From Macrostomum lignano (taxonomy: Eukaryota): 64,000 bases of DNA. The notes beneath the pieces are model-generated. The model ran no database searches. It was not told where the DNA came from and saw only the letters and a list, made by a program, of their open reading frames with translations. Positions 13,291 through 40,224 of the stretch are shown here, one piece after another; position 1 is the stretch's first letter, and each line of letters starts with the position of its first letter. A program made the translations under genes and the position numbers. The DNA lies in NCBI GenBank assembly GCA_002269645.1, contig NIVC01001414.1, positions 1 through 64,000 of the forward strand, read 5' to 3'.

Positions 13291-13752
13291 CAGATTTAGA
13301 GATTGCATTAGAGTATTGCCTGTGACTTCAGATATTTTTGCATTGGTATTCTGATTAAAACCAAACTTGAGACAAACTTTAAACGTTTCTGCTTCAGTTT
13401 TGCGATTGCAGGGGCATCGAAGGAAGCCTCGAAGGCCTGCAGGTCATCAATGTTGGCTTCGTTTACCTCAGAAGGCATCCATCAGCTGGCCAGCGGTTGA
13501 TTCAGTGAATTTCTAAACTACTCATTTCGCAATTCGCCTCCTGGTTTCTGGATCTGCCAAATTCCCAAATCATCATGTCACAGTGCTCTCATCTCCGTTC
13601 TCATTTCGTAGAACTCGTGGAGTTTCCAGCTGTGGGCTTGTGAAAGCACTCACTGACTACTGTTGAGTAGCAGTTCGAGTTTTGTAGTTGAGTCTGAGCA
13701 GAACACTAAATTAACAATACGATAATGTAATGTGCCCCAGCTGTTTATGTTT

Positions 13753-13908
13753 TGTTGCATTCTTTTAAATAAATAAGAATGATATTGATTGTCCAAGGCT
13801 CCTAACTGAGCCAAAACCAAGAAAACAAGTATCGCCCTCTGGCGTGCACCAGGTCTATTTATAGACTTATCAAAAATGGGGTGGCACAAAGAAAAGTCCA
13901 CCGTCACA
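13753..13908 (-). repeat. 3' LTR (156 bp)
   Basis: Reads TGTGACGG...TGCAACA on the minus strand, preceded by purine-rich GGTGGAGGG. Differs from the 5' LTR by 1 substitution and 2 homopolymer indels. Confidence 0.95.
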
Positions 13909-14087
13909 CCCTCCACCAAAAGATCGAAGCCGGAAAAATCGCAAGCCAAAAATCAATCGCAGGGTCACGCAAAGTTCGGATATGTCTTACAAAAAAAACA
14001 ATGCAAACTTGGCCACTAACGACTTTAATAAAAGTTAAATCGCTCAGTCAGTCTCTAAATCACTTGGTCAGTCACTAAATCACTTAG

Positions 14088-16756
14088 TCAGTCACTAGCC
14101 CAGATCCTGCTGAGACCATCGGCCACCGTGTTGCTTTCGCCTGGCTGGTACTGGATCTCGTAGTCATAGCCGGACAGATAGAAGGCCCACCGCTGGAGTC
14201 GTGGGTTGGCGTGGTCCATCTGCAGGTACTGCAGCGGCTTATGGTCGGACTTGATGACGAACCGGCGGCCTAGCAGGTAGTGCCGCAGCTTCTCGACCGC
14301 CCAGCGCACGGCGAGGCACTCCTTCTCGATCGTCGCGTAGCTCCGCTCCGCCGAAGTCAACCGCCGAGATACGAATAGCACGGGATGGATGCCGTCCTCG
14401 AACTCTTGCGTTAGCACCGCGCCGATCCCAGTCTCCGAGCTGGCAGTCTCCAAGGTGAACTGCCGACTGTAGTCCGGCGCGCGCAGCACCGGCTCGCTCG
14501 CCAGCAGAGATTTCACAGTCTCGAAGGCTCGCGTCTGCTGCTCTCCCCAGGCCGCCGTCAGGTCATCGGGTGCCGACTTCTTCGTGAGGTCCGTCAGGGC
14601 CGCCACCTTTTCTGAGTAATCGGGCACGAACCGACGGTAGTGGTTGAGCACTCCGAGCACAGATCGCAGCTGAGCCTTGGTCCGGGGCTGAGCCAGCGCC
14701 GTGATTGTCCGCACTCGGTCCTCGCTTGTACCGATCTCGCCTCCGCCGAGCTTGAAACCCAGGTAGTCAGCAGAGTTGCCGCCCAGGTAGCACTTTCGGG
14801 GTTGCACCGTTAGACCGGCAGCCTTAAGGCGACCAAATACTTCCCTCAGGTCCTTGACGTGCTGCTCGAATGTCGCGCTAAACACGGCGATGTCATCGAT
14901 GTAGGATTCCGCGTTGTCCAGCCCTTGGAACAGCTTGTCCATGAGCCTCTGGTACGTCGCGCTGCTGCAGTTTAAGCCCATGGGCATCACAGTAAAGTGA
15001 TACAGCTTGCCGCAGGCCGCGAAAGCCGTCAATCGCTTTGAATCCTCGTACAGTGGAATTTGCCAGTAGCCCTTGCAGCAGTCTAGCTTAGATATGAACT
15101 TGGCCTTGGCGACCCGCTCCAGTAGGTCCTCGATGTTCTTCATCGGATAGGAGTCGAAGGCCACCAGCTCATTCAGCGCCTTGAAGTTGACAGTGAACCG
15201 GACTGAGCCGTCCTTCTTGGCCACCAGACAGACCGGGGAGCAGTAGTCACTGTCAGATGGTTCGATCACCCCGAGGTCCAGCATGCGTTGAATCTCCTCT
15301 TGGAGCACCTGCCGATGCGCCTGCGGCTCCCGTCGCGGCCGGATGCGCACTACGCGGTCAGATGTCGTCCGGATACGGTGCTCCACTAGGTCAGTCCTGC
15401 CCGGGATCTCGCTGAAGACGCCCGCGAAGTCCTGCACCAGCTGCAGGAGACGATCTCTCTCGGCCGGTGTCAGATGTTTGGACAACTCAGGAGCACTCGT
15501 AGCTGCCGCTGGAAGCTGCATCAAAACCGCCTCTCGTGAATTGTACTTCTTAAGCAGGTTGACATGAAACGTGTTTGTCGCAGGGCCCATCCGAATCCGG
15601 TAGTTCACATCGCTGCACCTCTCCAGTACTTCATAGGGACCGCGCCATTCAGCGTGAAGCTTCTTGGATGACGATGGCAGCAGCAGCAGCACCTGATCTC
15701 CGGGCTGCAACTCTCGTTCCCGCGACTGCCGGTCGTACCAGAGTTTCTGACGCTTCCGTGCTAGCTCTTCGCTGTTCCGTGCCGCTTCCTGGCCAGCCCG
15801 CAGTCGGTCTCTCTGGGCCAGCACGAACGAGATGATGTCCTTCTTCTCTTCGGAGAGCTGCTCATCCCAGGTCTGCCGCAGTAGATCTAGCGGTCCCCGC
15901 ACAGTGCGTCCATACAAAAGTTCGAATGGGGAGAAGCCAGTTGTTTCGTTGGGCACCTCCCGAATGGCGAACAGCAGATACGGTAGGTACTGGTCCCACT
16001 TCTTTTTCTCGCGAGCTGGTAGTCTCCTCAACATATTCTTGAGAGTGCCGTGGAACCTCTCCACCAACGCCTGGCTTTGCGGATGGTACGGCGTCGACTG
16101 GATGCCCTCGACCCCGGTACACCGGTACAGGGCCTGCAGCAGTGCTGATGAAAAGTTAGTACCCTTATCGCTCTGGATCTCCCTCTGGAATCCGGTCCTC
16201 ACGAAGCAGTCCACCAATGCCTTCGCTACGGACTCAGCGTCGATCTTTCGCAGCGGGACTCCTTCGGGGAATCGAGTAGCCGCATCGATAATCGACAGGA
16301 TGTACTGGTGACCACTCGCAGTCCTCGTATACGGTCCACTGATATCGATGATAACTTTGGTGAAGGCCTCCTCCACTCCAGGCACTTGGACTAGTGGTAC
16401 CTTGTGATTGCCTGGGACTCGAGCCGTCTTCTGACACTTGTCGCACGTTGCTACGAAGTCCTTCACGTCCTTTGTCATCGTTGGCAACCAGAATCGCTGT
16501 TCCAGTCGTTGACAAGTCTTCCTTGTTCCCAAGTGGCCAGCGAATGCACTCTCGTGGGCCTGGGACAGCGCCGTAGCACGCAGAGCCTTCGAAGCACCAG
16601 TTGGTCCTCTCCAGCTGCTTGATGCCGAAACAGTCTGCCGCGGCTTTCCTTCACCAAGTCGTTGGTTTGTACCGCTGCTTGCAACTCCTTGTCGTCTTGT
16701 AGGGCCGCCTCGTAATCCAATGTTATAGGGCGCATTGCAGTTTCTTGTCTCGTTTT
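14088..16756 (-). CDS. pol: Retrotransposon pol: integrase (HHCC, DDE, GPY) - reverse transcriptase - RNase H
   Basis: AHESAFAGHLG...CDKCQK; IIDISGP / QSDKG / LVERFH; WRGPYEV; SPVCLVAKKDG, YIDD, YLG; VIKSDHKPL, ADGLSR. One frameshift near 16591 (DQLVL[P]KALR). RNase H TDAS motif reads ETASS. Confidence 0.95.
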
Positions 16757-16800
16757 GTTGTAAGTAGAAGGCATGAGGGGCTTTTGGGACAAAATTTTTC

Positions 16801-17105
16801 ACGTCCTCCATAATCCCATTAAATCCATCCATATTATCCCCGACAGAATCAGAAAAAAGGGGGGTCGCACTCGCTCACAAAACGTCCTCCATAATCCCAT
16901 TAAATCCATCCATATTATCCCTGACAGAATCAGAGCATAACAAGTGTCCTACTTGCTCCGAAAACTTCGAACATAATCCCATTAAATCCATCCATATTAT
17001 CCCTGACAGAATCAGAAAAACTCGCTCACAAAACGTCATCCATAATCCTCCTAACCTATCCTCCTTCCTCCACGACAGAATAAGAGCATAACAAGTGTCC
17101 TACAT
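16801..17105. repeat. Subterminal array: ~45-bp core CATAATCCCATTAAATCCATCCATATTATCCC(C/T)GACAGAATCAGA with alternating spacers
   Basis: Cores at 16809, 16890, 16972 and a degenerate one at 17041. Confidence 0.9.
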
Positions 17106-17238
17106 CATCCACTGACATCCACCCATAGCATATTCGAAACAATCAGAAAATAATCTGCATTCTTCTCCCCACATTCAATTTGCAACGTGCTACCACATCC
17201 CTAAAACTTTAAATCCCCTAACCCAGGGTCCTTACCCT

Positions 17239-17508
17239 TTGAAAAAAATTAAATTCTCAATAAAAATGTTTCCAGTTGTCTCTCCAGGTTCCTATTATAC
17301 TCAGCCTCATCCATTGTACAAATCCAAGTACCAATGCAAACTAGAATGCAGCGAGTACATGAGAAAATATTGGCCCGACGTTGATATCAATGTCCCTAAT
17401 ATTAATCTAGCTCTCCAAAGACACTGGTTTCATAAGTATGGAGTACCCTACGTAAAAGATTACGATAGCTATTATAACTTTGCAGAAATCATTAAGCAAT
17501 TGCGTTAA
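17239..17508 (+). CDS. Small ORF with weak resemblance to the C-terminal half of RNase T2 (probably catalytically dead)
   Basis: MRKYWPDV...LQRHWFHKYG...YYNFA aligns by eye to the T2 pattern L.KYWP...FW.HEW.KHG...YF..A; no IHGLWP motif. Confidence 0.4.
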   Translation: MKKIKFSIKMFPVVSPGSYYTQPHPLYKSKYQCKLECSEYMRKYWPDVDINVPNINLALQRHWFHKYGVPYVKDYDSYYNFAEIIKQLR

Positions 17509-17724
17509 AAAAACAGAAAGGCCAAAATCCTTTTCACTTTGGCCTCGCCCGAGGCCGAAATCGTTTTCATTTTGGCCTCGTGCGAGGCCGAAATCGTTTG
17601 CATTCTGGCCTTCCCTCGAGACGGAATTCTTCCTCGGCTGGGCTCAGTTAAAGTGAAAATCTCTCTCCCCCCCACGCGCGCTCTCTCTACCCCCATATCT
17701 TTCAAGAGCCTTCCCAAGTCATTG

Positions 17725-18174
17725 TTAGGAGCGCACAAAATAAACCCGGCTCCCTTGCGTTCGCCCTCTCTCCCCGTGCACTCGCCCTCTCTTCCCAAAC
17801 ACTTCACCCTCGACGTCCATTCCCAACCCCAGCTTTTTCTTACCAAAAATAACAGCTTTAACTAGCTTCCGAGCGATCGATTCCTTCCACCCGCGTGAAA
17901 TCCCCATATTGTCGAGTCTCCTGAGCATTTCTTTGTCCCAGCGATTCTTCTCCTCAGGAAAATCTCTATATTTAACGTCGTGCCACATGCAGACAGAGTC
18001 TAGCTCGTTCACAGGCTCATGCCCAGGATGTGGATTATTGTTTTTATCTAACTGTATTTCAAGTGGATTCAAAGGCCCGCAATATTTATAGCCGGGAAGT
18101 GTCCAGCCTTTGTTTGGATGAGGAAGCTTTTCTATCAGTCCATGTGAATCTATTTTACCACCAGAGCGCTGCAT
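17725..18174 (-). CDS. Parvovirus VP1-type phospholipase A2 (Polinton/adintovirus PLA2), ~149 aa
   Basis: WTLPGYKYCGPLNP Ca-binding loop, catalytic HDVKY, downstream D. ATG at 18174 in A-rich context; the ORF-track extension to 18417 overlaps the integrase. Confidence 0.9.
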   Translation of the reverse strand: MQRSGGKIDSHGLIEKLPHPNKGWTLPGYKYCGPLNPLEIQLDKNNNPHPGHEPVNELDSVCMWHDVKYRDFPEEKNRWDKEMLRRLDNMGISRGWKESIARKLVKAVIFGKKKLGLGMDVEGEVFGKRGRVHGERGRTQGSRVYFVRS

Positions 18175-18204
18175 TATTTTATTTAAAATTTTCTTTTTAA
18201 ATAA

Positions 18205-19245
18205 ATGACAGATCAGAAACTTAAAAAACTCTACTACAGCGACAAAGGATTCTTTGTAGGTAAAAATGCCGTTAGTAAACTCATGGAGCTGAGTAAGGAA
18301 CCAAAAGCTACAGTAGAAAAATGGCTCTCTAAGCAGGCTGTCTTTCAAGTCTGTTTCCCACCAGTAAAATTTGAAAGGCCCCATTTCAGTATTTATAAAC
18401 CTAATGAGGCACACCAAGCAGATCTTCTGTTTCTCCCCAATGACTCGGGCTACAAGTATGCTCTCACAGTAATAGACATTGCTTCCAGATATAAGGAAGC
18501 TCGCCCACTCAAGACGAAGAAGTCAGAGGTTGTTGCCAGCGCACTGCAAGATATTTATAAAAACTCTCCGCTCACACACCCCCAAACCCTTATGACCGAC
18601 CCGGGTAAGGAATTCATGGGTGCAGTGAAATCCCTTATGGAAAAGAAAAACACAGAGATTCGCTATGGCAGAACAAACTTGCACAGAGACCAGGCTTTTG
18701 TGGAAAGATTCAATCTAACTCTAGCCAAGAGGCTATTCACTAAGCAGCAGACAGCTGAAGAGCTGAAACTAAAAAGTGGTCAGTACTATTCAAAATGGAC
18801 AGACCGCCTCCCCACTGTTATAGAGCAACTGAACAATGAAGTCACACGCATGACTGGATTGAAACCGTCCCATGCAATTAAACAAGACACTGTCGAACTT
18901 AAGGCAACTCATAGAACAGACAACAACACGACAACCCCACACAACACACACAACACAAAACACACCTCTAACTACCCTAAGCTACCGGGAGTTGAATCAC
19001 CATACATACTGACAAACTCTGAGTTTCTACGGTTTTTATATCTACCTGGAGAGCTAGAGAAGGACACTAAAAGAAGAGCTACAGATCCATACTTCAGCCT
19101 TGATGTACATAAAATAGACAGACATTTTACCTCCGACTCCGGTGACTATTACTTTTTATCTCAGGCCTTTAACCCTAAATCCCCCACGCGGTCATTCACT
19201 AGAGCTGAACTGCTAGTGATACCAGCTGACACAGAAATTAATTAA
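18205..19245 (+). CDS. int: Polinton-type DDE integrase, 346 aa
   Basis: HQADLLFL...YALTVIDIASRY...LMTDPGKEF...QAFVERFNLTL; intact ORF. Confidence 0.93.
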   Translation: MTDQKLKKLYYSDKGFFVGKNAVSKLMELSKEPKATVEKWLSKQAVFQVCFPPVKFERPHFSIYKPNEAHQADLLFLPNDSGYKYALTVIDIASRYKEARPLKTKKSEVVASALQDIYKNSPLTHPQTLMTDPGKEFMGAVKSLMEKKNTEIRYGRTNLHRDQAFVERFNLTLAKRLFTKQQTAEELKLKSGQYYSKWTDRLPTVIEQLNNEVTRMTGLKPSHAIKQDTVELKATHRTDNNTTTPHNTHNTKHTSNYPKLPGVESPYILTNSEFLRFLYLPGELEKDTKRRATDPYFSLDVHKIDRHFTSDSGDYYFLSQAFNPKSPTRSFTRAELLVIPADTEIN

Positions 19246-19261
19246 AATATTAAAATAAAAA

Positions 19262-19720
19262 ATGACAAAGATTGAAACCAGAACCATCAATAAACTCAAT
19301 AAAATCATTGAATCAAAGAAACCAGGTCTTATATCAATTAAAGGTATCAAAGTAAAAATCGATCCCACGCAGCAAATAGTTCAGTGTAATGAACAAAGAC
19401 ACAGCATCACAGATGAAAAGTCAGGAGGAATCCTACCATTAGCAGCTCTTATTCCGATCATTGCAGGCGCTGTAAGTGCCGCAGGTGGTGTAGCTGGAGG
19501 TGTAGCAACTGCTGTTAAAGCTGGAAATGATAGGGCCCACCGGCTAGAATTGCAAAAGATTGCAAGAGATAAAGGTATAACAATTAAGGCAGGAGAGGAC
19601 TGCCCTGAGGGCTGCCCCGATCGTGATGATTTTGAGCATGAAAATTCTGTAAGCAAGTCTGACATTGTCAAAGCTATCATGACACTACACAATGCTGGGT
19701 TTACAATAATGCGCATGTGA
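19262..19720 (+). CDS. Adenovirus pX/pre-mu-like virion core or membrane-active protein, 152 aa
   Basis: KSGG|ILPLAALIPIIAGAVSAAGGVAGGVATAV closely parallels adenovirus pX (RGG|ILPLLIPLIAAAIGAVPGIASVA). Confidence 0.65.
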   Translation: MTKIETRTINKLNKIIESKKPGLISIKGIKVKIDPTQQIVQCNEQRHSITDEKSGGILPLAALIPIIAGAVSAAGGVAGGVATAVKAGNDRAHRLELQKIARDKGITIKAGEDCPEGCPDRDDFEHENSVSKSDIVKAIMTLHNAGFTIMRM

Positions 19721-19843
19721 TGAGGTTTAAAACCCCACTTTATCCAGCTTCATAAACCAAGCGCTACTTATAGGATGTAGAAACAGTTCAACTTTTCTAT
19801 CAGGGTAGTAACCCTCAAATTTTTTTTTTATTTTAGAGAAAAA

Positions 19844-22800
19844 ATGCCAAAAGCCAATCCAGCAAAATATTTAGTCAACAAATATTTTTCAAAAGGCGTC
19901 TCATTTCAAGACAAAAGTAATTTACTAAGAGAAGCATGTAAACAAAAGTTTAACACCGACCCTGGTCACCTGGGAAGCTATGAAAAACAGTTGGAAATCA
20001 TCAATCAATTAGAATCCAACCAGTATGCGCCTATACAAAATCCTGCAAAGGAACACCAAGAGAGGAGTCGCAACTTAGTTAACAAATACGAAACTCTCAC
20101 TGGTGAAAAAGCAAAGTACCCACAAAATAAGCAGGAACAAGAGAAATTAGAGCAATTAATCCATTTAAAAGAGTCGGAGCTTGCCATTGAAGAGATTAAT
20201 TTTGCACAGAGAAAGTTTACAGAACATTACATCGAGTACACAATCCCAATTAACGACACCAACGGTACCACCGCAAACATCTACGACCATAAAGACAGCA
20301 TCCAATCAGTTGTTGATCACACACTCAAAACAAGCAAGAGCTTTAAACTACAGATATCATTCAAGATTGCATTTTATATGCCTGCAAAACCCACTGAGCA
20401 TCTCGAGTATTACATGACAACAAAGGCAAAGCCATTCACCCCTACAGACACACTGGATCCTTTCCTTCAAGATGTCACTAAGAAAATTGAAGCGTTTACA
20501 TCCAGAGGTTCTGGATGGGTCGTAGGAGGGATTCAAAGAGCGACTGTCATGGTCATGAAATATGACCCACTTAAAGCCTCCTCTTATATAGAGCTCCCAC
20601 ACAAGCTAGCCGGCAAAAAAGCTTGCATAAATGTTAAAAATAAAGACAATTGCTGTGCTCTATGGGCAGTTCTTTCTGCACTTCTTCATGATAGTGTCCC
20701 TCACCACCCTGAAAGAACCTCAAATTATCAAAATTATTTCAACTACTATCTCATTGAATGCGAAAAGAAGGGAATCAGGTTTGACAAAGGAGGCTTGGCG
20801 ATTTCTCAGATCCCAAAGCTGGAAGAGGTGTTTAATAACAAAATTAGAATCACAGTCTTTGAGTGGAGTGAAAAAACTGAGAAAGTTCAACCGGTCAGAT
20901 GTAGCAAAGACGTTTTAGATCCTGAGGGGAAAAGGCGGACTGAAGTGGATCTTCTAGTGATTGGTAATTTACTAGAGGAGGCTCACTATGTTTGGGTTAA
21001 AGATCTTTCAAGACTCATTCACAAGCAATTGAATAATCATCACGAGGCTGTTGCCATCTGCCGCTTGTGCCTTAAGCATTACAGTGGACCTGAACGCTTT
21101 GAAAAACTAGCAGAGCATGAATTATCATGCGAGGATCACCCGACCAACTGCTCTCTTCCTTCAGCTGAAGAGAAGTATCTCCGGTTTAAGAACTATCACA
21201 AGATGGAGAAGCTCCCATTTGTTGTATATGCTGATTTCGAATGCTCAATCATGCCAGAAACACAAAAACAAACTCAAAAACAAAAACAAACTCAAACTTG
21301 AAAACAAACTCAAACTCAAAGACATGTCCCCAATTCAGTAGCATATGCCTTTATTATTACAAAAGGACTTGTTGAGTATAATTATTTCTTTGGACAGCAG
21401 TGTGTGGAGCAGTTTATTGCCAGAATGTTAGAGTTGCAAAGAGTGATTAGCACCCTTCAACCTATTCCAATAAGTATGTCTGAGGAGGATGAAAGCAATT
21501 TCCTATCAGCAACTCATTGCCACATCTGCAGGAAACAGTTAACTTGCACTGATTTTAAAAACCCCACCGTTAGGGACCACTGCCACTTTACTGGGAAATT
21601 TAGAGGTGCAGCGCATAACACCTGTAATCTAAAGCTAAAATCGAACATTCATGATCTAACGATATTTTGTCACAACGCAAAGAACTATGACATGCATTTA
21701 ATAGTTGAAAAAATTGGCATGATTCCAGACATACACCTTGATTGCATCGCAGAGAACAAGGAGAAGTTTAAGTGTGTTGATATTAAACAGGATAATTCGG
21801 GTACAGGTAAAATAAGACTGAAGGATTCATATCAATTTCTAGCTGCCAGTCTAGACGAACTAAGCAAGAATCTAAAAGATGAACAATGTACATATACAAA
21901 GATGTTTGCAAGTAAAATTAACAACAGTGATGAATCATTTAAACTTTTAAGAAAGAAAGGCTTCTACCCCTATGAAAATATTACTGGGTATCACGTATTT
22001 GAAGATGGTTTACCACCACAAGAAAAGTTCTTTTCAAAGCTAACAGACTCTGTAATCTCTGACAAAGACTATGAGCACGCGAAGCATGTCTATAATTACT
22101 TTAATTGTCAAAACTTTTTCCAGTATCACCTGCTTTACCTCTTCACAGATGTGTTTCTGCTGGCCGATGTGTTTGAAACCTTCAGATATACCTGGTACAC
22201 AGCATATGGCCTCGATCCAGCACATTATGTGTCTCTGCCTGCCACTAGCTGGGAATCTTTGCTTAAAATGAAATGGGATCAAGATCCAGATTGGTACATT
22301 GAACTTCTTACAGACATTGACATGTACAATTTTGTCGAATCGTCAAAGCGAGGGGGATCTCAATTTGCACATAGATATGCAAAAGCAAACAATCCCTACA
22401 TTGAATCTTACAATAAGGAGCAGCCCTCAAACTACATTACTTACTTGGACGCTAATAATCTCTACGGTTGGGCGATGAGTCAAGATCTTCCAGTTAGAGA
22501 TTTTCGATGGCTACCCTCATCAGAACTAAAGTGGGACTTTTCATTGGCTGCCATTTATGAGGTTGATGTTTACATTCCACCAGAGCTTCACGATTATTTC
22601 TCTGATTTTCCACCCTTCCCAGAGAACATAAAGTGCCCGAAAATAATCGAAACTCCCAATGATAATAATGGAACTTGGCACCTGTCAGGAACAGAAAAAG
22701 AACATACAGAGAAACTAACACAGAATCTAAACAACAAGACACGTTACAAAATCCATTACAAACTGCTTCAGTATTTTATCTCACTTGGTTGCAGGGTCAC

Positions 22801-23692
22801 CAAAGTTCACAGGGCTCTTACATTTACAGAGGAAGCGTGGATGAAACCCTACATTGATAAGAACACCCAGTTTAGGACCAAAGCAACCAACGACTTTGAC
22901 AAGAACCTCTTTAAGTTAGCCAACAACTCTGTCTATGGCAAGACTCTTGAGAATGAGCGGAAAAGAACAAACCTGAAACTTGTTACCTCATCAGAGCCTG
23001 CTGTTATTCAGGCAAATATTTCAAAGCCAACGTTCAAAGAACTCCATATCTTTAATAGCTACTTGGGTGTGATCATATTTTACAAAACCAAGGTGACGTT
23101 GCGCAAGCCGATCTATACAGGTGTCACTGTTCTCGACGAATCAAAACGTTTGATGTACCAGTTCTTCTATGACATGAAGCAGCAGTACAAAGATAAAATG
23201 AAACTCTTATACACTGACACGGATAGTTTTATTATGGACATTCAAACAGAAGACATTTATCAGGACATGCTGCAGCAAAAAGATTTGTTTGACTTGTCTG
23301 AGTATGATGAATCTTTCAGGACACAGAATGGCGATCAAGTGTTTGACGCCACTAACAAGAAAGTGATTGGGAAAATGAAGGACGAGATTGCTGGTGACAT
23401 AATCACTGAATTCATTGGGTTGAGAGCAAAGTCATATTTTTAAAATGTGAGTCGTCAGACCCAATAAAAAATCAAAGGGAATTCCGAAACGCGTCGTTAG
23501 GAAGGAAATTAATGAAGCTGAATACAGAGACGCCTTGAATTGCAACAAAAAGACATCACATGAGTTCTCAAAGCTACAATCTAAAAACCATATTATTCAC
23601 ACAATTCAGCAAAAGAAGATTGGACTGTCAGGTGCAGATAACAAGAGATTCATTTTGATGACAATATCAACAGTCTACCGTTCGGGCACTGA
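19844..23692 (+). CDS. polB: Protein-primed family B DNA polymerase (pPolB), interrupted
   Basis: ExoI YADFEC, endonuclease-VII-like CHIC...RDHCHFTG...HNTCN, ExoII FCHNAKNYD, PolA YLDANNLYGWAM, PolB KLANNSVYGK, PolC YTDTDS. In-frame TGA at 21299-21301. The C-terminus (KSKGIPKR...DNKRFI..LPFGH*) is recovered across three apparent 1-nt deletions, ending at 23692. Confidence 0.95.
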
Positions 23693-23771
23693 AGATTAGG
23701 TTTAGGAGGTGGAGATTAGGTTTAGGTTTAAGAGAAAGTTTAATAAACCTCATTAAAAATGACATAAAAAA

Positions 23772-24173
23772 ATGACAACAAATAACTTTCTTGAAGATTT
23801 GGCTAACGAACTGGAAATCCCAAACTTTAGAGGAATATTTATGAGGGACACTCTGCCTGATTTTCCTCTAAGAAAAGAATGCGGCATCATGAACTTTGAC
23901 ACCACCGATAAGCCAGGATCTCATTGGGTTTGCTGGGTGATTGATCCTGATCGCAAGCACAAGTGTTATTACTTTGATAGCTATGGGAAGGCAGTACCAG
24001 AAGAGCTAAGAAATTATATGAAGGGGAAAAATAATAAAAAAAATTATCGCTCAGACTTTATTCTCCAAGGTCTTAGCAGTGATATTTGCGGTGAGCTGTG
24101 CATGACTGTTTTGTATGCAATGACCAAAACACGAAAGACCTACAAGGAAATTATTCTTGGCTGTGTTTCATAG
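23772..24173 (+). CDS. Adenain-type (adenoviral/Polinton) cysteine protease, 133 aa
   Basis: GSHWVC (His), YFDSYG (Asp), LQG...DICGELC (Gln, Cys). Confidence 0.9.
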   Translation: MTTNNFLEDLANELEIPNFRGIFMRDTLPDFPLRKECGIMNFDTTDKPGSHWVCWVIDPDRKHKCYYFDSYGKAVPEELRNYMKGKNNKKNYRSDFILQGLSSDICGELCMTVLYAMTKTRKTYKEIILGCVS

Positions 24174-24176
24174 GGT

Positions 24177-24771
24177 TCATTGTGCATTCCTCGTTGTACT
24201 TCTCGTTGTCCTTCTTTCCGCATAATGTTGAAGAACTTTCTCGAGTTCATTTCTCAGCTGACTCATGTCATCAGTACCGACCATGTTCAAGTTCATTCGA
24301 ATTGATTGTTCATAAAGATCCTGAATGGTTTTGAACTCATCCTCTGAAATGAACTTATCCTCGATTGCCCTTGAAATGTACCCTATGATTGAAGTGTGCA
24401 CCCCTTTCTCTTTTACTTGCTTCTCCTGTAGCTGCTTTAGTTTTTTTCGCCTGTTTCGCGCTAATGCTCCAGTAATTGCTGAAATAAGTCCACATGCAGC
24501 ACCCACAGAGCCGAGTGGGATTGCGATTGGGGCTGTGATGACTGGCAACGTTGAGACAGCTGCAGCAGACCCAGTTAGAACAGACACAGACCTAGAAGCA
24601 TATTGCTATAGTCGAAAAATTTTCAATGTCATCTCGCATTTTTCTAATCTCCACCAGTCGAAATTGTTGAGAGTTACAAGTAATAACAGGGTAGAGTTTT
24701 TGCTGCTCATATTGAGGTGCACTAGGTGCTGTGGGAACGTTCGGATCATAAAGAGAATTTTGAGCATCCAT
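24177..24771 (-). pseudogene. Polinton-associated hydrophobic/coiled-coil protein with N-terminal PTAPSAP and LYP motifs; frameshifted near 24600
   Basis: My translation from ATG 24771: MDAQNSLYDPNVPTAPSAPQYEQQKLYPVITCNSQQFRLVEIRKMRDDIENFSTIAI. After a frame change it continues SVLTGSAAAVSTLPVITAPIAIPLGSVGAACGLISAITG...ISRAIEDKFISEDEF. Confidence 0.7.
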
Positions 24772-24806
24772 TTTTAAGGAAATTTTTAAAAAAATAATCG
24801 ACTACT

Positions 24807-25780
24807 AGTTGGTGGTGTTAGACTTCTTGTGGGGCCTCCGCAGTTGAAGCAGCTAATCTTAGGCTTTAGGCTTTGCGGTCTGAATCGTCCTTTGTTTATC
24901 CATAGCATTGGACGCCGTCGCCCCCTCAGAGGTCTCTTGCTCGGGTGTCCTGGTGTTCCGCCGCTTTTGTCGCTTTTTCTTGCCATTTGCGTAGTCATCG
25001 GCCAGTTTCGCAGCCTCTTTGATGTCCTTCGGTTTTCTCTCTCGCATCCACACCTGGAGTCCTCTTGTCAGAGAGTCCGTAAACTGCTCCAGAAGCACTT
25101 TCTGCCTGACGATGGAGTCGCCACTTATCAGTTCCTCTCTCTGATCCTCGTCTAGCCCAGCTGTCATCCATCGGACAAACAGGTCTTCCAGCTTTGTCGC
25201 GAACACCTGGAAGGTCTCTTCAGGCGCCTTCCGCAAAGACCGAAACCGCTGTCGCGTAGGTCTCCTCGCCGATGTTGTATCTCGCTAAGATGGTCGCCTT
25301 TGCCAAGTCGTCGTAGTCCGCGCTCGCCGCTGTCGTCAGACTGTGGAATGCGCTCTGCGCAACGCCCGTCAGTACGGTGCCAGCCGAATCGTCCACTCTG
25401 ACTTTTGCCATCCACACGATGCCGCTGCCCTTTCGAAGGTCATTAGGAATGCCTCGATGTCATCAGAGTCCGTCAGCTTAAACAGCTTGGGCTCCGCTGC
25501 TTGTGGTCGTGGCTTAGACTCGGCCAGGAGCTTCGTGAACTCCGCTTGCTGACGAGCCAGTTGCTCCAGGTAGAATGCTGACTGTCTTTCTTGCGCGCGA
25601 GTCATTTCTTGTAGCTGCTGACTCTGGTGCGTCAGGAGCATCTTCATTGTCTCCATCAGATTCGCGCCCTCCAGCGTAGCTGAATCTTGGATTCCGCTGG
25701 CTTCTTCAGCATTGTCTTCGGAGCCTTCTCCGAGGCGCCCCGTCTTGGGAACGCAGGTTGTACGGGTGCTTCGAGCCCGC
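24807..25780 (-). CDS. gag: Retrotransposon gag (capsid/SCAN-like domain, truncated zinc knuckle), several frameshifts
   Basis: PKLFKLTDSDDIEAFLMTFERAAASCGW...RLAPY; LTGVAQSAF...DYDDLAKATILARY; KVLLEQF...WMRERKPKDIKEAAKLADDY; CFNCGGP. Confidence 0.88.
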
Positions 25781-25793
25781 ACCGCTGCCACCA
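25776..25793 (-). promoter_or_regulatory. Primer binding site complementary to the tRNA-Leu 3' end
   Basis: TGGTGGCAGCGGTG directly follows the 5' LTR; animal tRNA-Leu ends ...CACCGCTGCCACCA. Confidence 0.85.
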
Positions 25794-25951
25794 TGTTGCA
25801 TTCTTGTAAATAAAATAAGAATGATATTGATTGTCCAAGGCTCCTAACTGAGCCAAAACCAAGAAAACAAGTATCGCCCTCTGGCGTGCACCAGGTCTAT
25901 TTATAGACTTTATCAAAAATGGGGTGGCACAAAGAAAAGTCCACCGTCACA
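25794..25951 (-). repeat. 5' LTR (158 bp)
   Basis: Near-identical to 13753-13908; followed by the PBS on the minus strand. Confidence 0.95.
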
Positions 25952-26139
25952 TGTTTGCACTAATCTGATTCACCACAAAAAATAAGTTTCTAATTCGAAA
26001 TTCGCAATCAATAAATGGAGTTGGCTTGCAAAAAAATATTATTCTTTTTTGGAATTTTGTTTGCATCCGTTTTGCAAGAGAATCCGCAGTCGCGCACTGA
26101 CTGCTTTTAGTAGCCACGCACTGACATTGCGGCAGTTCT

Positions 26140-26310
26140 GCTGCTCCCTCAGAGCCAATGGGAGAGGCAGAAAGCTGGGCAGAGGCGGCCGCACAAGCCA
26201 GCAAAAGCAGCCGCAATCTGAGCAGGCAGGGTGAGAAGGAACTCGCTGCAGCTGCTCCAGGGCCAATAAAATCTGCTGCAGAGGCGCCCGCTGCCCTGCC
26301 GGACTCTCGG
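26140..26310 (+). promoter_or_regulatory. Putative promoter/5' region of the ankyrin genes (two CCAAT boxes), conserved at 42385-42575
   Basis: GCCAATGG and GCCAATAA in a block highly similar between paralogues, upstream of the first coding exon. Confidence 0.45.
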
Positions 26311-26311
26311 G

Positions 26312-26612
26312 CTGAGCTGAGACACCTGCGGCTGAGCTGAGACACCTGCGACTGAGCTGAGACACCTGCGGCTGAGCTGAGACACCTGCGACTGAGCTGA
26401 GACACCTGCGACTGAGCTGAGACACCTGCGACTGAGCTGAGACACCTGCGACTGAGCTGAGACACCTGCGACTGAGCTGAGACACCTGCGACTGAGCTGA
26501 GACACCTGCGACTGAGCTGAGACACCTGCGACTGAGCTGAGACACCTGCGACTGAGCTGAGACACCTGCGACTGAGCTGAGACACCTGCGACTGAGCTGA
26601 GACACCTGCGGC
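26312..26612. repeat. 20-bp VNTR GACTGAGCTGAGACACCTGC (~15 copies)
   Basis: Single copy in the paralogue near 42560. Confidence 0.95.
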
Positions 26613-26633: not shown

Positions 26634-29600
26634 ATGGCAGAGCGAGGGAAGCCACCATTTCCTAACAAAAAAGTAAGTAAAGTTCAAGTAAGAAAACTAA
26701 AAGTATAATCATATTTGTAGTCTTGACTGCAGTTGCGGAAACTCACTCACATGTTTGAATGTGCAGCTTGGGTGCCACAATTGCAGTTGCAGGAACTCAC
26801 TCACATGTTTGAATGTGCAGCTTGGGTGCCTCAATTGCAGTTGCAGGAACTCACTCACATGTTTGAATGTGCAACTTGGGTGTCTCAATTGCAGTTGCAG
26901 GAACTCTCTGACATGTTTAAATGTGCAGCTTGGGTGCCTCAATTGCAGTTTCAGGAACTCACTCACATGTTTGAATGTGCAGCTTGGGTGCCTCAATTGC
27001 AGTTGCAGCAACTCACTCACATGTTTGAATGTGCAGCTCGGGTGCCTCAATTGCAGTGGCAGGAACTCACTCACATGTTTGAATGTGCAGCTTGGGTGCC
27101 TCAATTGCAGTTGCAGGAACTCACTCACATGTTTGAATGTGCAGCTTGGGTGCCTCAATTGCAGTTTCAGGAACTCACTCACATGTTTGAATGAGAAGCT
27201 TGAGTGCCTCAATTGCAGTTGCAGGAACTCACTCAGCCGGACCCCAGCAACCGGGCAAGCGTCGGATCCTCACCAGCCGATCTCCAGACTCTCGCTCACG
27301 ACGTCATCCAAGGTGACTTCGGCCAGGTGCGGCGGCTGGCAACGCGCCAGCTGGTCACCAGCGCTGATGCAGCTCGTCGGACCGTCCTCATGCTGGTGGC
27401 CGACGCTCCTGAGACTCCCGTGCACACTGAAAAGTGCATATTGTACTTATTTGAGCTGGGCGCGAACCCCAAGGCGGCTGACGCGAACGGCGACACGGCT
27501 GCGCACCTGGCAGCCCGGCGGGACCACCTGCGGCTGCTGACGCTGCTATCGTTCGATGCGAAGTGGCTGCGGAACGACAACGGCGCCACTCCGCTGATGG
27601 AGGCGGCGCGGACTGGAAGCTGGAGATGCGCCAAGCACCTGCTGCACCTGCTCAGGCAGAGAAGGTTTAACGAGTGCAAGGAGCACGAAAACTCGAAGAG
27701 ATCGCGGCTGCTCAGACTGAAGGATCGCGAGGGTCGGACGGCGTCAGACCTGGCGAGGCTCAGCGGCCACTCAGAGCTGGCCAGCTACATCGAGCGGTGA
27801 GTGAGCAGTTCGCTGCTGTGTCCATCAAGTTTTGCAGCATTCGGCTGGCTATGGTGGCCAGAGCTGCAGTCTCAGGCCAGCCAATCAGAGCCAGTCAGCT
27901 GAACTTGTCTCTGTCTGACTGCTTGATGGACGAGAGCTGTGATTGGCTGGCTGCCTCCTAGCCAATGGGGTGCCGGTTGATCTCAGTCGAGAATGGAAGC
28001 TGTAGGGCCTCGGTGTGCAGTGAGAGTGTGTAGGTTGAGCTGCAGATGGAGAACTGGGAGGCTGTGCGTGAGTGCTTTGTGAGACATTGTGAGATGGAAG
28101 GAAACTCATGCTGCAGAAATGGAAAAGAGCTGCGTGTGAGAAGTCGGATGCGCTCTCGCCAATGCTGATTGTTGCAGAGCTGCTGCAGTCTTCTTGGAAA
28201 CTCCATCTGCGAGCTGCTCAGATAATCAGGAAATTCAGTTATCTAAATTTATTACCAAAATTCTATTGTAGAACTATAAACTTTTTAATGGCTGTCAAAG
28301 TTGTAAAATTTTAGAAACATTTGCTGCTCATTTTGGCTGTTGCAGGGAGATGCGGCTGGTTGTGAGCAAAGGTGGCAGGATCTTCGGCCTGACAGCCCAG
28401 GTGAGCGGAATCTGCGGTGCCGATGCGGCTGCAGCTGAGCAGCTGTGCTCAAATTTCCCGCTCGCCTTTGCAGGAGGAGGCGGATCGACAGGAACTGCAG
28501 CAGCTGGCCGAGGCGGGCGACTCGGCGGGGCTGCGGCGAGCGGCGACCCGCGGCAGCTGCGACCTGCCTGACAGAGATGGTTACACCGCGTTGATGTTGG
28601 CAGCTCACAACAGCTCGTGCGGTGATGAGGCTCTGTGGGAGCAGCTGGTGCAGCTGGGTGATCCCACATGTGCTGATACACGGGCTGAAATTTGCCTGCA
28701 CCATGCAGCCGGACCTGGAAACTCTGCTGCAGCCTCCGCTCTGCTGGCTGCCGGAGCCTCCGCCAATGTCAGGGAAGATCTGTGTGACTTTACGCCCCTC
28801 ATGGCGGCAGCCTTTGCGCCCCCCACCACCGCCGCCGCATTCGGTCGGGTTCTGCTGGACTCAGGGGCGGATTGGAGCCTGAAGGACATGCCGGGCAGGA
28901 CTGCGCTGGATTTGGCCACACAGGAGGGAAAGAGCGAACTGGCTGAGCTGCTGCGTGGGTGAGTTTCCATGGCGACTGAGAATGTCTCTCTGACTTTGAT
29001 TTATCATTGATAAAAATTATGCTGTAATTTATGATTGAATATTGAGCAGCTGACTGCAGTTGCTCAGAGTGGGCATTTTTACATTTTTGTAGTTTAAATG
29101 GGCAGCAGACACTGACTGAGCTTCATTGAGGAAGTTTGCATAGGTAATTTAATTTAAAATTTAATTTCATAGGTAATTTAAGCAAAAGGAAGAAATGAAG
29201 CACAGAGCATGATCTTCAACCTGAATTCCTCTAACTTTAAACTCCGCACTGCCTACTTAGGTACGGCGGCAAGATTTACTTCAACGAGCCTCTGGCACTC
29301 CCGTGAGTTCCTTCAGCACACACAGCTACAGCACACACAGCTACAGCACACACAGCTACAGCACACACAGCTACAGCACACAGCTACAGCACACAGCTCC
29401 AGCACACACAGCTACAGCACACACAGCTACAGCACACACAGCTACAGCACACAGCTACAGCACACACAGCTACAGCACACAGCTACAGCACACACAGCTA
29501 CAGCACACAGCTACAGCACACACAGCTACAGCACACAGCTACAGCACACACAGCTACAGCACACAGCTACAGCACACACAGCTACAGCACACAGCTACAG

Positions 29601-30756
29601 CACACACAGCTACAGCACACAGCTACAGCACACACAGCTACAGCACACAGCTACAGCACACACAGCTACAGCACACAGCTACAGCACACACAGCTACAGC
29701 ACACAGCTACAGCACACACAGCTACAGCACACAGCTAGATCATGCTAATTATCCCTCATTGCCTCAATTCGCATCCCCTCAGCCCCCCGTTCCTGGAGCG
29801 CTGGGACAAAGTTCGCCTCATCGGTCGCGGAGGCTCTGGCAAAGTCCACGAAGTTCGAACTGACACGGGCGTCACATGCGCTGCCAAGACTCTCAAACTG
29901 CCTGTGCAGCTCGGTGATGACCAAACCCCTGTGAGCAAGGAGATCCACAGAGCTGTCGAGAGCGAGAGAAACCTGTGCCGACTGCGGCATCCCAACATCG
30001 TCAGGTTCTTGCACATCGCTCAGCCGAAGCCCGCCAAAGTCGTTGTGTTCATGGAGCTGCTGGACGGCCGAAGCTTGGAGAGGTTTATCGGCAACAAGCC
30101 GCTGGACGAGCCAAAGATTCGAGACTTCAGCGAGCAGGTGAGCATTGTGCATCCTTGATGCTCCTGTTCCATGTTTTCATGAATGATGACTGCTCACTGA
30201 CCGACCGCTCGCAGATCTGCAGCGCGCTGCTCTACCTGCACAGCCAGCAGCCGCCCGTGATCCACAGAGACATCAACTGCTCCAACATAATTGTTCGTGC
30301 TGACAAGACCCGAATCAAGCTGATCGACTTCGGCCTGTCAATTAAGCTGGAGCAGTCAGTCAGCCACATCTCAGGCTCCACTCCGTTTCCCAAAGGCACT
30401 CTGAACTTCATGGCGCCAGAGCTGCTCGGAGCGGGACAGTCGGAGAGCGACAGCGTGCAGTACAGCAGAGAGTCGGACATCTGGGCGTTCGCTGCTCGGT
30501 CTTCCAGATGGCGTCCGGCGCGAGGCCGTTCGCGAACGCCAGGAGCTTCTTAGAAATGGCCCAGCTGATCGACAGGAGGGGCGCCCCCGCCCTGCCGGAC
30601 GGCCGGTCCGCAGAGCTGCAGGACTTCTACAGCCGCTGCACCACCAAGGACCGCAGGAAGAGAAAGTCAGCAGGGGAGCTGCTGGAGCACGAGTTTCTGA
30701 CGGGTGGGAAGCTGAAAACGCGATTGCTGGGCTCGCTTTTCGGTGTAAGGAAATGA
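26634..30756 (+). CDS. Ankyrin-repeat Ser/Thr protein kinase. Exons 26634-26672, 27225-27796, 28346-28400, 28474-28958, 29783-30137, 30215-30756
   Basis: All introns GT-AG with consistent phases (0,2,0,2,0). Ankyrin motifs GDTAAHLAA, GATPLMEAA, GRTASDLA, GYTALMLAA, FTPLMAAA, GRTALDLA. Kinase GRGGSGKV, AAK, alphaC Glu, HRDIN, DFG, GTLNFMAPE, SDIW. One 1-nt deletion near 30491 (F[G]CSVFQMASG). Confidence 0.88.
26727..27235. repeat. 54-bp tandem array (~9 copies) that includes the exon-2 splice acceptor
   Basis: Unit TTGCAGTTGCAGGAACTCACTCACATGTTTGAATGTGCAGCTTGGGTGCCTCAA; single copy in the paralogue at 42750-42810. Confidence 0.93.
29321..29737. repeat. (CACAGCTACAG[CA])n 11/13-bp minisatellite in intron 4 of the ankyrin-kinase gene
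   Basis: Same unit as 45596-46204. Confidence 0.95.
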
Positions 30757-38748: not shown

Positions 38749-39379
38749 ACAATTTCATCCCCTGCCGCCGATGAGGTGGGGAACCGCTTTCCTATCGACG
38801 GCGGGGCTTACACAACACAGCGCATGCAATTAAACAGCACTAGACATGGCCGTAACTACGGGGGCGAAGGCTAGACGCTGAGACTTGGCGGATTACTCTG
38901 GTTGCGTTAAAGCATCTGGGGGAGCTCAGTTCACTGTCCTTCTGTGCGGGCCGGCCCACGCATCCACCCCTCGGTTGCCACGCTGGTCGGGGTTGGGCGT
39001 CTGTCCCGGGCCTGCCCGCAGCTCCTCCCCAGGAGCGGCCTCCGCTCTGGGCTCATTAAGAATTCTCCGGCCGGCCGTCTCCGCCTGTCAACCGTCAAGG
39101 TCAAATTGCCGCCTCGCCTTTGATCTCTGTCTGAAATTGATGGGAGCTGCTGTAGCTTTGCCATGCGCTGCGTGTGCTATTGTAGGCTCAGCCTATGCCC
39201 ATTTCTATTGTTCTGTCTTAATAATTTCTAAACCCTATAGAGGGGGTCGGGGCAGATGCAGGGACATAGAAGTAGCACCACTTGACTTGAAGCACAGACT
39301 AATAAGTATAAGCATGCTTCCAGCTCGCTGCTCTCTGTTGATTTACAAAATGCAGCGAAATCAACGTTGCGAGCTGCGG

Positions 39380-39742
39380 CTGCGGTGGCAGTCTTCCATT
39401 TCTTTTCAACTTTCTGCAGCAGATGGTCAGGGAACGCCGGGTAGATGGAAGGAACGGCATTTGGATTTTGAAGCTAGGCAGAAAGCCTGCAAATTTTTCT
39501 TTGAAGCAAGATTCCTCAAAACGCATTGAGCAGACTTGCGTGGATGGCGATGGCTCAGAATCTTTTCTTCTCAGCGCTATCAGCCACTTTTTTCTCATTT
39601 CCTCGTCCTTTGGAAAAGTATGAAAGGACACTCCCGCCAAAGACATTGCTGAGTTGTTCGAGCAGCCAACAGCGCAGCAAAAGCTGCCGTACTTTCCCTT
39701 TCTTTTTCTCGGCAATTTAGAAGATACAGGTTGTTCTTTCAT
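39380..39742 (-). pseudogene. THAP-domain ORF, probably a transposase-derived relic
   Basis: FCCAVGCSN...SFHTFPKDEEMRKKWL...VCSMRFEE (His to Arg). AVPSIYPAFPDHL is recoverable after a frameshift. No DDE core seen. Confidence 0.75.
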
Positions 39743-40224
39743 TTCGTTTTGAGCAACTATTAATTTTTAATAGCTTTGCTTAGCTGTTCAAAGTTAGTAT
39801 AGCATTGCTATTATGGTCCCCAAGCCACATTAATATACATGTATATTTAAAAAAGGGCAGAGTGCAGACAGCTGAAGAAGGGCCAGTCTTCCCCAGGCCA
39901 AAAATATCGATTGTTTTGGGCTGGGGAAGAGAGGACCATTTTTTGCTTTGTCATTTTGTCAAAAACGAGCCAAGGCAAGCAATGCTGGACGCGCTGTTTA
40001 GTAGTACTTATTGGTCTGTGATTAGCCAAGGAGTCCCTGCTTTAAGCCTCAGAATATTAAGTTGAAGTCGGGGCTACTGGATAAGGGATGGGGGTTGAGG
40101 TAGAGCAGGGAAGCAACACAAAGACAAACAAGTTGAAATTTACAAGGCATGAGCTCATGACGCCACGCTGATATACGCGCTTGTTTTATTTTCAGTGCTG
40201 TACAAATGAAGGAATTAGTCGACT

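What the first reader, a model, noticed from the sequence alone, without database searches (positions are those of the whole stretch)
16745..24840. The insert sits exactly where the retroviral protease should be, and brings its own cysteine protease
Seen: on the minus strand the insert is flanked by CAAC on both sides (24808-24811 and 16757-16760) and has short imperfect ends TAGTAG / CTACTTA. Removing it, and restoring one C in the GGGG run at 24831-24834, gives an in-frame join CFNCGGPHKKSNTTN-KTRQETAMRPITLDYEAALQDD from a broken zinc knuckle into the pre-integrase linker, with the whole protease region gone. Inference: a microhomology-mediated replacement, or insertion into a protease-less derivative. 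Speculative: the adenain could process Gag-Pol at xxGG sites (a KSGG occurs in one gag frame).
Basis: partly seen in the sequence, partly recalled or inferred. Interest (0 to 1): 0.7.

Follow-up and report, generated by a model that had tools for sequence, protein, structure and literature searches.

The report
Truncated Polinton inside a flatworm retrotransposon
A piece of a common virus-like DNA transposon landed in one copy of a flatworm retrotransposon and that copy lost its protease region; the incoming protease is a standard gene of such transposons, so this is most likely an ordinary dead nested insertion, not a protease swap.

Summary
The anatomy is real; the protease-swap reading is not supported. 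The host is a Gmr1-type gypsy LTR element (13753-25951, minus strand). Its closest full-length protein is from Macrostomum lignano. Against it, the window keeps residues 1-331 and 527-1428; 195 codons, including the aspartic protease, are gone, and an 8,045-nt Polinton/adintovirus piece (16763-24807) stands there. That piece carries PLA2, integrase, pX, pPolB, an intact-looking adenain and one conserved ORF, but no capsid, no ATPase and no second terminal repeat. Both CAAC are host codons 585 nt apart, not a target duplication. Gag has 7 frame breaks and pol 1, so no single base explains the join. All 7 annotated family members are uninterrupted at residue 527, and none is protease-less. Adenain is in about three quarters of Polintons, lies on the opposite strand, and Gag-Pol has no Gly-Gly between residues 527 and 1040. 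Best reading: one clean integrase-made end plus a broken end with host deletion. One oddity remains: AGTAG sits 1 nt from the left breakpoint, so a short-ended, capsid-less derivative is not excluded. The left junction lies in error-rich sequence and was not seen in independent contigs.

The parts
25952..25956 (-). 5-bp target duplication of the LTR element (AAACA), upstream copy
   Evidence: flanks; empty-site joint 13746/25951 skipping 12,204 nt in X1, X3, X5 (3 of 4 runs laid)
25794..25951 (-). 5' LTR, 158 nt, TG...CA
   Evidence: 98.1% to the 3' LTR; 2 one-base gaps and 1 substitution
25776..25793 (-). primer-binding site, TGG start directly after the LTR (tRNA-Leu type by recall, not tested)
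   Evidence: sequence
24808..25801 (-). gag (SCAN-type capsid domain, zinc knuckle cut at its last Cys); P0001 aa 1-331; 7 frame breaks
   Evidence: 322 of 327 aligned codons identical; Pfam SCAN E=1e-13
24801..24807 (-). left junction: one unassigned base, then AGTAGT; 30-36 nt upstream of the orfX start
24177..24771 (-). orfX, conserved Polinton gene of unknown function; start complete, broken near 24590-24622
   Evidence: 28 relatives, N-termini alike; beside adenain in 13 of 80 metagenome loci; loose ends at 24590 and 24622
23772..24173 (+). adenain-type cysteine protease, 133 aa, His51/Asp69/Gln99/Cys106 present
   Evidence: alignment of 28; PDB 1avp E=0.006; model pLDDT 87.6, best fold match 1nln E=4e-8, TM 0.75; Pfam Peptidase_C5 E=5e-4, below cut-off
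19844..23699 (+). protein-primed DNA polymerase B, broken near 21300 and near 23440-23465
   Evidence: Pfam DNA_pol_B_2 E=1e-16; 39% over 674 aa to the 1101-aa pPolB of L066; N-part
19262..19720 (+). pX-like core protein with a KSGG motif directly at the start of the pX-like segment, the likely natural adenain substrate
   Evidence: Pfam Adeno_PX E=5e-7, aa 53-85; profile of relatives E=7.5e-9
18205..19245 (+). rve integrase of the insert, 346 aa, open, D-D-E motifs present
   Evidence: Pfam rve E=6e-9; motifs at aa 71, 130, 166
17725..18174 (-). parvovirus-type phospholipase A2-like gene
   Evidence: Pfam Phospholip_A2_4 E=2.5e-13
16763..17611 (+). the one intact Polinton end: AGTAG terminus at 16763, then 82-nt and 33-nt tandem repeats; no inverted partner in the window
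   Evidence: longest inverted match between the two 800-nt ends is 10 nt
14088..16762 (-). pol remainder: linker from aa 527, integrase, RT, RNase H (Gmr1 order); one frame break near 16590; one RNase H active-site residue differs from the family
   Evidence: 99% over P0001 aa 585-1428; Pfam
13909..13917 (-). polypurine tract
   Evidence: sequence
13753..13908 (-). 3' LTR, 156 nt
13748..13752 (-). 5-bp target duplication (AAACA), downstream copy

Best explanation
A Gmr1-type LTR retrotransposon first inserted normally at this locus (shown: LTRs, 5-bp duplication, empty site). A copy of an abundant Polinton/adintovirus family then entered it. Its right end was joined cleanly at codon 527, as an integrase would (shown: AGTAG terminus flush with intact host sequence; the enzyme is inferred). 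Its other arm, with the capsid genes, the packaging ATPase and the second terminal repeat, is missing together with 585 nt of the host (host loss shown; the arm is inferred from relatives). Either one end was integrated and host repair joined the other with deletion, or a normal insertion was followed by one deletion across the left junction. The adenain is simply the next-to-last Polinton gene that survived. Its job is to mature the Polinton's own virion proteins such as pX (inferred). The composite is a dead copy; the loss of the aspartic protease is incidental.
For: Host breakpoints aa 331 and 527. No target duplication. Terminal motif present once, no inverted partner, whereas Polinton TIRs are 46-1,447 bp (PMC8097293) and TSDs 5-8 bp (PMC10748475). 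No capsid, ATPase or PY-like hit in 64 kb at E<=1 with profiles of relatives, and minor capsid only at E>=0.49 far outside the insert, while 14 of 17 related metagenome loci of 6 kb or more hold the capsid gene. Polintons without capsid tend to lack protease and ATPase too (PMC4028283). In 9 of 9 related loci examined, orfX follows another same-strand ORF within -56 to +45 nt and never an element end; TAG-TAG 30-36 nt upstream of its start fits the stop of a lost upstream gene. The insert family is far deeper than the host family on unbranched contigs (X5 679-941 against 89-103; X12 251-446 against 41-57), so it lives independently. 7 of 7 family proteins run through aa 527, and the 5 of 7 that reach the knuckle keep the protease. 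A random 585-nt deletion removes the whole protease domain 9% of the time and touches it 23%. One-ended integration with a truncated second end and host deletions is documented for retroviral integrases (PMC5041404).
Against: AGTAG lies 1 nt from the last host-matching base; chance is 0.2-0.3% within 3 nt and 1-2% within 20 nt, and AGTAGT is the commonest vertebrate Maverick end motif. No capsid or ATPase gene of this family was found in the host species (no named Macrostomum hit among the 120 listed of 125). No loose end at 24806, as a common onward arm would give, is among the 24 shown of 1,492. The missing arm was never seen directly.
Confidence: 0.62

Rival explanations
1. The 8-kb insert is a whole element: a capsid-less Polinton derivative with a long right end and a left end of only a few bases (AGTAG). 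Both junctions were made at element ends, and the 585-nt host loss came from uncoupled insertion of the two ends or an end-directed adjacent deletion. The protease match is still coincidence.
For: AGTAG 1 nt from the breakpoint (p 0.002-0.02); both junctions then fall on AG...CT ends; family-level depth continues to at least 24688 and no high-depth loose end at 24806 is among those shown; no capsid protein of the host species found.
Against: The two ends agree for only 5 nt. Keeping adenain, pX and PLA2 without a capsid is against the reported concerted loss. orfX is an internal gene in 9 of 9 relatives examined. AGTAG occurs 5 more times on that strand of the insert. The adenain of this family is itself absent from the protein collection, so a missing capsid hit says little.
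Confidence: 0.22
2. The left junction is an assembly error: a full-length Polinton sits at codon 527 and the assembly dropped its left arm together with the host protease region.
For: Indels pile up towards this junction: 7 of 8 host frame breaks lie in the 994 nt of gag (p=6e-4 by length); gaps against X5 contigs go 0 in 161, 3 in 493, 9 in 654 nt approaching it, against 1 in about 1,960 nt in pol. No contig bridging either insert junction is among the 32 pieces shown.
Against: The locus is coherent (matching LTRs, duplication, empty site); the window has no N; the two sides share no long sequence that would drive a misjoin; contigs drop rare alleles, so not seeing a bridge is weak.
Confidence: 0.1
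3. One reading: the insert went into an already protease-less derivative and duplicated CAAC (4 bp).
For: CAAC on both sides; the flanks are in phase.
Against: Needs a 4-bp duplication and ends TAGTAG/CTACTTA, against 5-8 bp and AG...CT in the literature. Both CAAC, and the two bases before the right one, are intact host codons. No protease-less member among 7 plus 1 proteins.
Confidence: 0.04
4. One reading: adenain replaces the aspartic protease and processes Gag-Pol, so the composite is a working or trans-mobilised element.
For: The adenain looks catalytically intact; a Lys-x-Gly-Gly lies between capsid and knuckle at aa 277, like the KSGG of the insert's pX; LTRs, PBS, PPT and duplication are all present; adenovirus protease tolerates some non-consensus sites and can act in the cytoplasm (PMC4246237).
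Against: Opposite strand, not fused; 141-167 stops per frame and 6 AATAAA in the sense direction between gag and pol; knuckle broken; no Gly-Gly in aa 527-1040, so integrase could not be cut from RT at such a site; the only consensus sites are aa 443 (deleted) and aa 1198 (inside RT); 9 GG against 5.5 expected; the aa-277 motif is in members that have their own protease; family contigs show no branch at either breakpoint in X3 or X5.
Confidence: 0.02

Closest known systems
Polintons/Mavericks, Alpha-type adintoviruses with PLA2/pX (Starrett et al., PMC8502044; Krupovic et al., PMC4028283; Barreat and Katzourakis, PMC8097293)
   Same: pPolB (PF03175), rve integrase, adenain, parvovirus-type PLA2, pX-like protein; AG-start terminus with subterminal tandem repeats; compact genes with AT-rich leaders.
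   Different: 8.0 kb against 12.7-24.6 kb; no capsid, penton or ATPase; one terminal region only; no 6-bp duplication; PLA2 and pX are separate genes on opposite strands, not one PLA2X.
Gmr1/Osvaldo clade of Ty3/gypsy LTR retrotransposons; M. lignano family BOX15_Mlig016452 (P0001 cluster); 40 such families reported in this species (PMC12801592)
   Same: Integrase upstream of RT, SCAN-type gag, TG...CA LTRs, 97-99% protein identity to the family.
   Different: This copy lacks aa 332-526, holds the insert and has 8 frame breaks. Which of the 40 published families it is could not be told.
Aberrant one-ended integration by retroviral integrases (PMC5041404)
   Same: One normal junction, one often truncated end joined by host repair, deletion of target DNA.
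   Different: Shown for HIV and ASLV; for Polinton integrases it is an inference.
Polintons with TE cargo, including polB replaced by a gypsy element (bioRxiv 10.1101/2025.02.07.637071)
   Same: Polinton and gypsy nested, with loss of a gene at the site.
   Different: Reverse nesting, and those elements keep both TIRs and have multiplied; here no sign of a second composite copy.

Membership tests
Polinton/Maverick (adintovirus) | protein-primed PolB | tested here: met
   PF03175 E=1e-16; 39% to L066 pPolB; broken in this copy
Polinton/Maverick (adintovirus) | rve integrase | tested here: met
   PF00665 E=6e-9; D-D-E motifs
Polinton/Maverick (adintovirus) | adenain-like protease | tested here: met
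Polinton/Maverick (adintovirus) | major and minor capsid proteins, packaging ATPase | tested here: not met
   no hit in the insert by tblastn or profiles; so this copy is a fragment or derivative, not a complete member
Polinton/Maverick (adintovirus) | terminal inverted repeats | tested here: not met
   only 5 nt match at the ends; longest inverted match 10 nt
Polinton/Maverick (adintovirus) | AG...CT end motif | tested here: met
   AGTAGA at 16763 (+) and AGTAGT at 24806 (-); the left one may be internal
Polinton/Maverick (adintovirus) | 5-8 bp target duplication | tested here: not met
   CCAACT versus TACAAC
Alpha adintovirus virion module | PLA2 with pX domain (PLA2X) | tested here: inconclusive
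   both domains present but as separate genes; no PolB or hexon tree was built
Gmr1-clade LTR retrotransposon | integrase upstream of RT and RNase H | tested here: met
   Pfam order; definition in PMC8220671
Gmr1-clade LTR retrotransposon | LTRs, PBS, PPT, short target duplication | tested here: met
Gmr1-clade LTR retrotransposon | aspartic protease between gag and integrase | tested here: not met
   deleted in this copy; present in P0001 aa 358-443 and in 5 of 5 members that cover it
Gmr1-clade LTR retrotransposon | RT phylogeny inside the clade | not tested
   no tree built; assignment rests on domain order and SCAN
Adenain substrate | (M/I/L)XGG-X or (M/I/L)XGX-G at the polyprotein's domain junctions | tested here: not met
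   consensus from PMC4246237; sites only at aa 443 and 1198, none in aa 527-1040
Adenain substrate | cleavage in vitro | not testable with these tools
   needs a bench assay

The most novel reading that the evidence does not exclude
The insert is not a broken copy but a member of an amplified 8-kb Polinton derivative that has lost capsid and ATPase, kept adenain, pX and PLA2, and moves with one long end and one end of only a few bases; its lopsided ends make integration delete target DNA instead of duplicating it. It would be a satellite-like, short-ended Polinton abundant in a laboratory model flatworm.
Probability: 0.2. Interest if true: 0.55.

Novelty: new member of a known kind. Interest (0 to 1): 0.2.

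Why it matters
As a protease swap it would have been striking: no such case came up in one search. The evidence makes it an ordinary nested, dead insertion. What is left of value is modest. The window shows an abundant, young Polinton family with open integrase, adenain, pX and PLA2 frames in a flatworm for which searches returned no description of Polintons (1 and 2 papers with single mentions, seen as listings only). It also gives one candidate example of a Polinton insertion with target deletion. If the short left end proves to be shared by many copies, it would show how little terminal sequence a Polinton integrase needs.

Tried and rejected
No genome is held for this window, so other copies could not be read whole. 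No RNA holder listed; X12 is only guessed to be RNA, and nothing is concluded on expression. 4 of 24 listed runs were laid, all contigs; its tables were cut (15 of 46 joints, 24 of 1,492 loose ends, 32 of about 19,460 pieces shown), so neither insert junction was seen bridged and absence there is weak. Higher depth over 16763-17500 looked like a doubled TIR, but summed depth scales with the number of contigs and tandem repeats lie there, so I did not count it; a 142-nt loose end at 17512 in X12 alone is only a hint. The joint 16821/26148 (side 26 nt) is unexplained and not used. IMG/VR held no close relative of pPolB, integrase or the orfX start; its adenain hits were 24-55% and distant. Prokaryote genomes gave nothing. 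A capsid profile found no named Macrostomum protein (only the top 7,998 candidates were scored). 0 of 4 insert proteins are in the collection by exact sequence. The profiles for ATPase, minor capsid, PY-like and capsid were built from some of the same loci they were counted in, so 14 of 17 is partly circular; 9 of the 13 orfX loci were examined. Supplements of PMC12801592 did not hold this family's sequence in the text available (file 5 held 76,578 characters and lines break at 60 letters), so host nucleotides at the left breakpoint are inferred from protein only; bioRxiv supplements were closed. Earlier findings: none returned. Rejected: CAAC as target duplication; CTACTTA as the element end; KSGG in gag as an adaptation.
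Full report
Setting. The window is repeat-rich animal DNA with many minisatellites. No genome is held. The closest named proteins are from Macrostomum lignano, and all listed runs that hold the stretch are from one organism (20 rows, 7 studies).

The host element. On the minus strand an LTR retrotransposon spans 13753-25951. The LTRs are 158 and 156 nt, 98.1% alike, with 2 one-base gaps and 1 substitution. A 5-bp duplication AAACA flanks it, and the empty site (joint 13746/25951, skipping 12,204 nt) is present in 3 of the 4 runs laid. Pfam gives SCAN-type gag and, in pol, integrase before RT and RNase H, the order that marks Gmr1 elements (PMC8220671, passages). M. lignano has 40 Gmr1/Osvaldo families (PMC12801592, passages and supplement table). 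P0001 is a 1428-aa Gag-Pol of this family with an aspartic protease at aa 358-443, 99% identical over aa 585-1428.

Size of the loss. A frame-aware comparison of each flank gives aa 1-331 at 25801-24808 (322 of 327 codons identical) and aa 527 onward from 16762. So 195 codons (585 nt) are missing: the end of the knuckle region, the protease and most of the linker. Residues 327-329 differ from the family, including the knuckle's last Cys, and 330-331 match again. Family contigs in X3 and X5 match to 16762 and continue into other sequence, at the depth of the whole family; on the gag side they run past 24831 in the same way (records 21, 22, 27, 30). All 7 members of the P0001 cluster, and the fused model P0002, keep the linker upstream of aa 527; the 5 of 7 that reach the knuckle, and P0002, keep the protease motif; 2 of 7 start at aa 470 and 481. 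No protease-less member was found.

The junctions. CAAC is at both stated places, but both are host codons. The right end of the insert is therefore CTACT on the minus strand, that is AGTAGAAGG... from 16763 on the plus strand, followed by 82-nt and 33-nt tandem repeats. Maverick ends are (AGT)2 or (AG)3 with 6-bp duplications and TIRs of 46-1,447 bp in vertebrates (PMC8097293, passages and section 7), and 5-8 bp duplications generally (PMC10748475, passages). Here the 6-mers beside the ends differ, the terminal 18-mer occurs once even with 3 mismatches, and the two 800-nt ends share at most 10 inverted nt. The frame claim fails: gag has 7 breaks and pol 1. That excess (p=6e-4) and the rising gap rate against X5 contigs towards the left junction suggest weak consensus sequence there, so single-base readings of it are unsafe.

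The insert. 8,045 nt at 40% G+C inside a 56-58% host. Genes: PLA2-like, rve integrase, pX-like, pPolB (broken), adenain and orfX. The protease has His51, Asp69, Gln99 and Cys106, invariant or nearly so in 28 sequences; His and Cys align with those of adenovirus protease, and the model's best fold match is adenovirus 2 proteinase (E=4e-8, TM 0.75). This gene set is that of adintoviruses with PLA2/pX modules (PMC8502044, passages and Results part 1). Of 80 metagenome loci fetched with the adenain, 17 are 6 kb or longer; 14 hold a double-jelly-roll capsid and 12 an ATPase (partly circular). The window has no hit to either. orfX has a complete start, and in 9 of 9 relatives examined it follows another same-strand gene closely; here the break is 36 nt upstream of it. 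On unbranched contigs the insert family is about 6-10 times deeper than the host family, which is not a copy number but shows it is an independent, abundant element.

Is the protease match more than chance? Adenain is in 74% of Polintons (PMC4028283, passages), so any Polinton piece of this size is likely to bring one. A random 585-nt deletion in the ORF removes the whole protease domain in 9% of placements and touches it in 23%. For processing, the consensus is (M/I/L)XGG-X or (M/I/L)XGX-G, with some relaxation, and full activity needs cofactors (PMC4246237, passages and section 4). P0001 has such sites only at aa 443, which is deleted, and aa 1198, inside RT; it has no Gly-Gly in aa 527-1040; 9 GG are seen against 5.5 expected. 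A Lys-x-Gly-Gly at aa 277 does resemble the KSGG in the insert's pX, but it is also in members with their own protease. The adenain is on the other strand, and the insert puts 141-167 stops per frame and 6 AATAAA between gag and pol.

Mechanism. Shown: order of nesting at this locus, one clean end, no duplication, 585-nt host loss, missing virion genes. Inferred: that the clean end was made by the Polinton integrase and that a capsid arm was lost. One event can give all of this: when a retroviral integrase inserts only one end, host enzymes join the other, often truncated, with deletions of target DNA (PMC5041404, passages). A later deletion across the left junction gives the same picture. I put this at 0.62.

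What speaks against it. AGTAG starts 1 nt from the last host-matching base, which chance gives 0.2-0.3% within 3 nt or 1-2% within 20 nt. It may be the stop codons of the lost upstream gene, or a true short end. No capsid protein of the species turned up, though its adenain is not in that collection either. A short-ended, capsid-less derivative gets 0.22 and an assembly misjoin 0.10. Insertion into a protease-less copy gets 0.04 and a working protease swap 0.02.

Comparison and novelty. Nesting of Polintons and gypsy elements is known in the reverse direction, with polB replaced (bioRxiv 10.1101/2025.02.07.637071, passages). Searches for Macrostomum with Polinton or Maverick gave 1 and 2 papers with single mentions (listings only); a search for protease replacement in retrotransposons gave 0; the library lacks most subscription papers, and supplements I could not see may list this family. 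Verdict: a new, truncated member of a known kind inside a known kind of retrotransposon; interest 0.2.

Noticed in passing
window 27204-30553 (+) and 42782-47560 (+): Two ankyrin-repeat gene starts, one followed by protein-kinase exons (29921-30553) and the other by caspase-domain exons (46530-46931, 47078-47560); upstream stretches 26017-26332 and 42273-42580 are 88% alike. Looks like a duplicated ankyrin gene with different C-terminal enzymes.
   Followed up: no
window 16763-24807: The insert family is much deeper than the host retrotransposon in all 4 runs laid and has open integrase, adenain, pX and PLA2 frames: an abundant, young Polinton family for which no description was found.
   Followed up: partly
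window 13746/25951: The empty site of the LTR element is present in X1, X3 and X5, so the insertion is on only some chromosomes or in only some animals.
   Followed up: partly
window 16821/26148: A joint between the Polinton terminal region and the repeat upstream of the 5' LTR appears in X1, X3 and X5 at about the depth of the empty site; shorter side only 26 nt, probably another locus.
   Followed up: no
window 21258-21324: A 6-nt tandem repeat inside pPolB encodes a Q/K/T-rich run; the polymerase frame is broken within it.
   Followed up: no
window 21500-21640 (+): pPolB carries an endonuclease VII-like segment (PF02945, E=7e-5, just under the cut-off), also present in the pPolB of L066.
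   Followed up: no
window 39299-39766 (-), 52461-53131 (+), 53608-54159 and 57614-57940 (-): THAP domain, a copia-type gag fragment and kinesin exons.
   Followed up: no
window 40232-40712 and 43433-44303: Inverted-repeat elements with 53-nt and 108-nt arms, MITE-like.
   Followed up: no
L084, L085, L086: Metagenome Polinton-like contigs whose integrase is closest to the insert's (43-48%) carry ATPase, minor and major capsid, pX, adenain and orfX in one module.
   Followed up: partly
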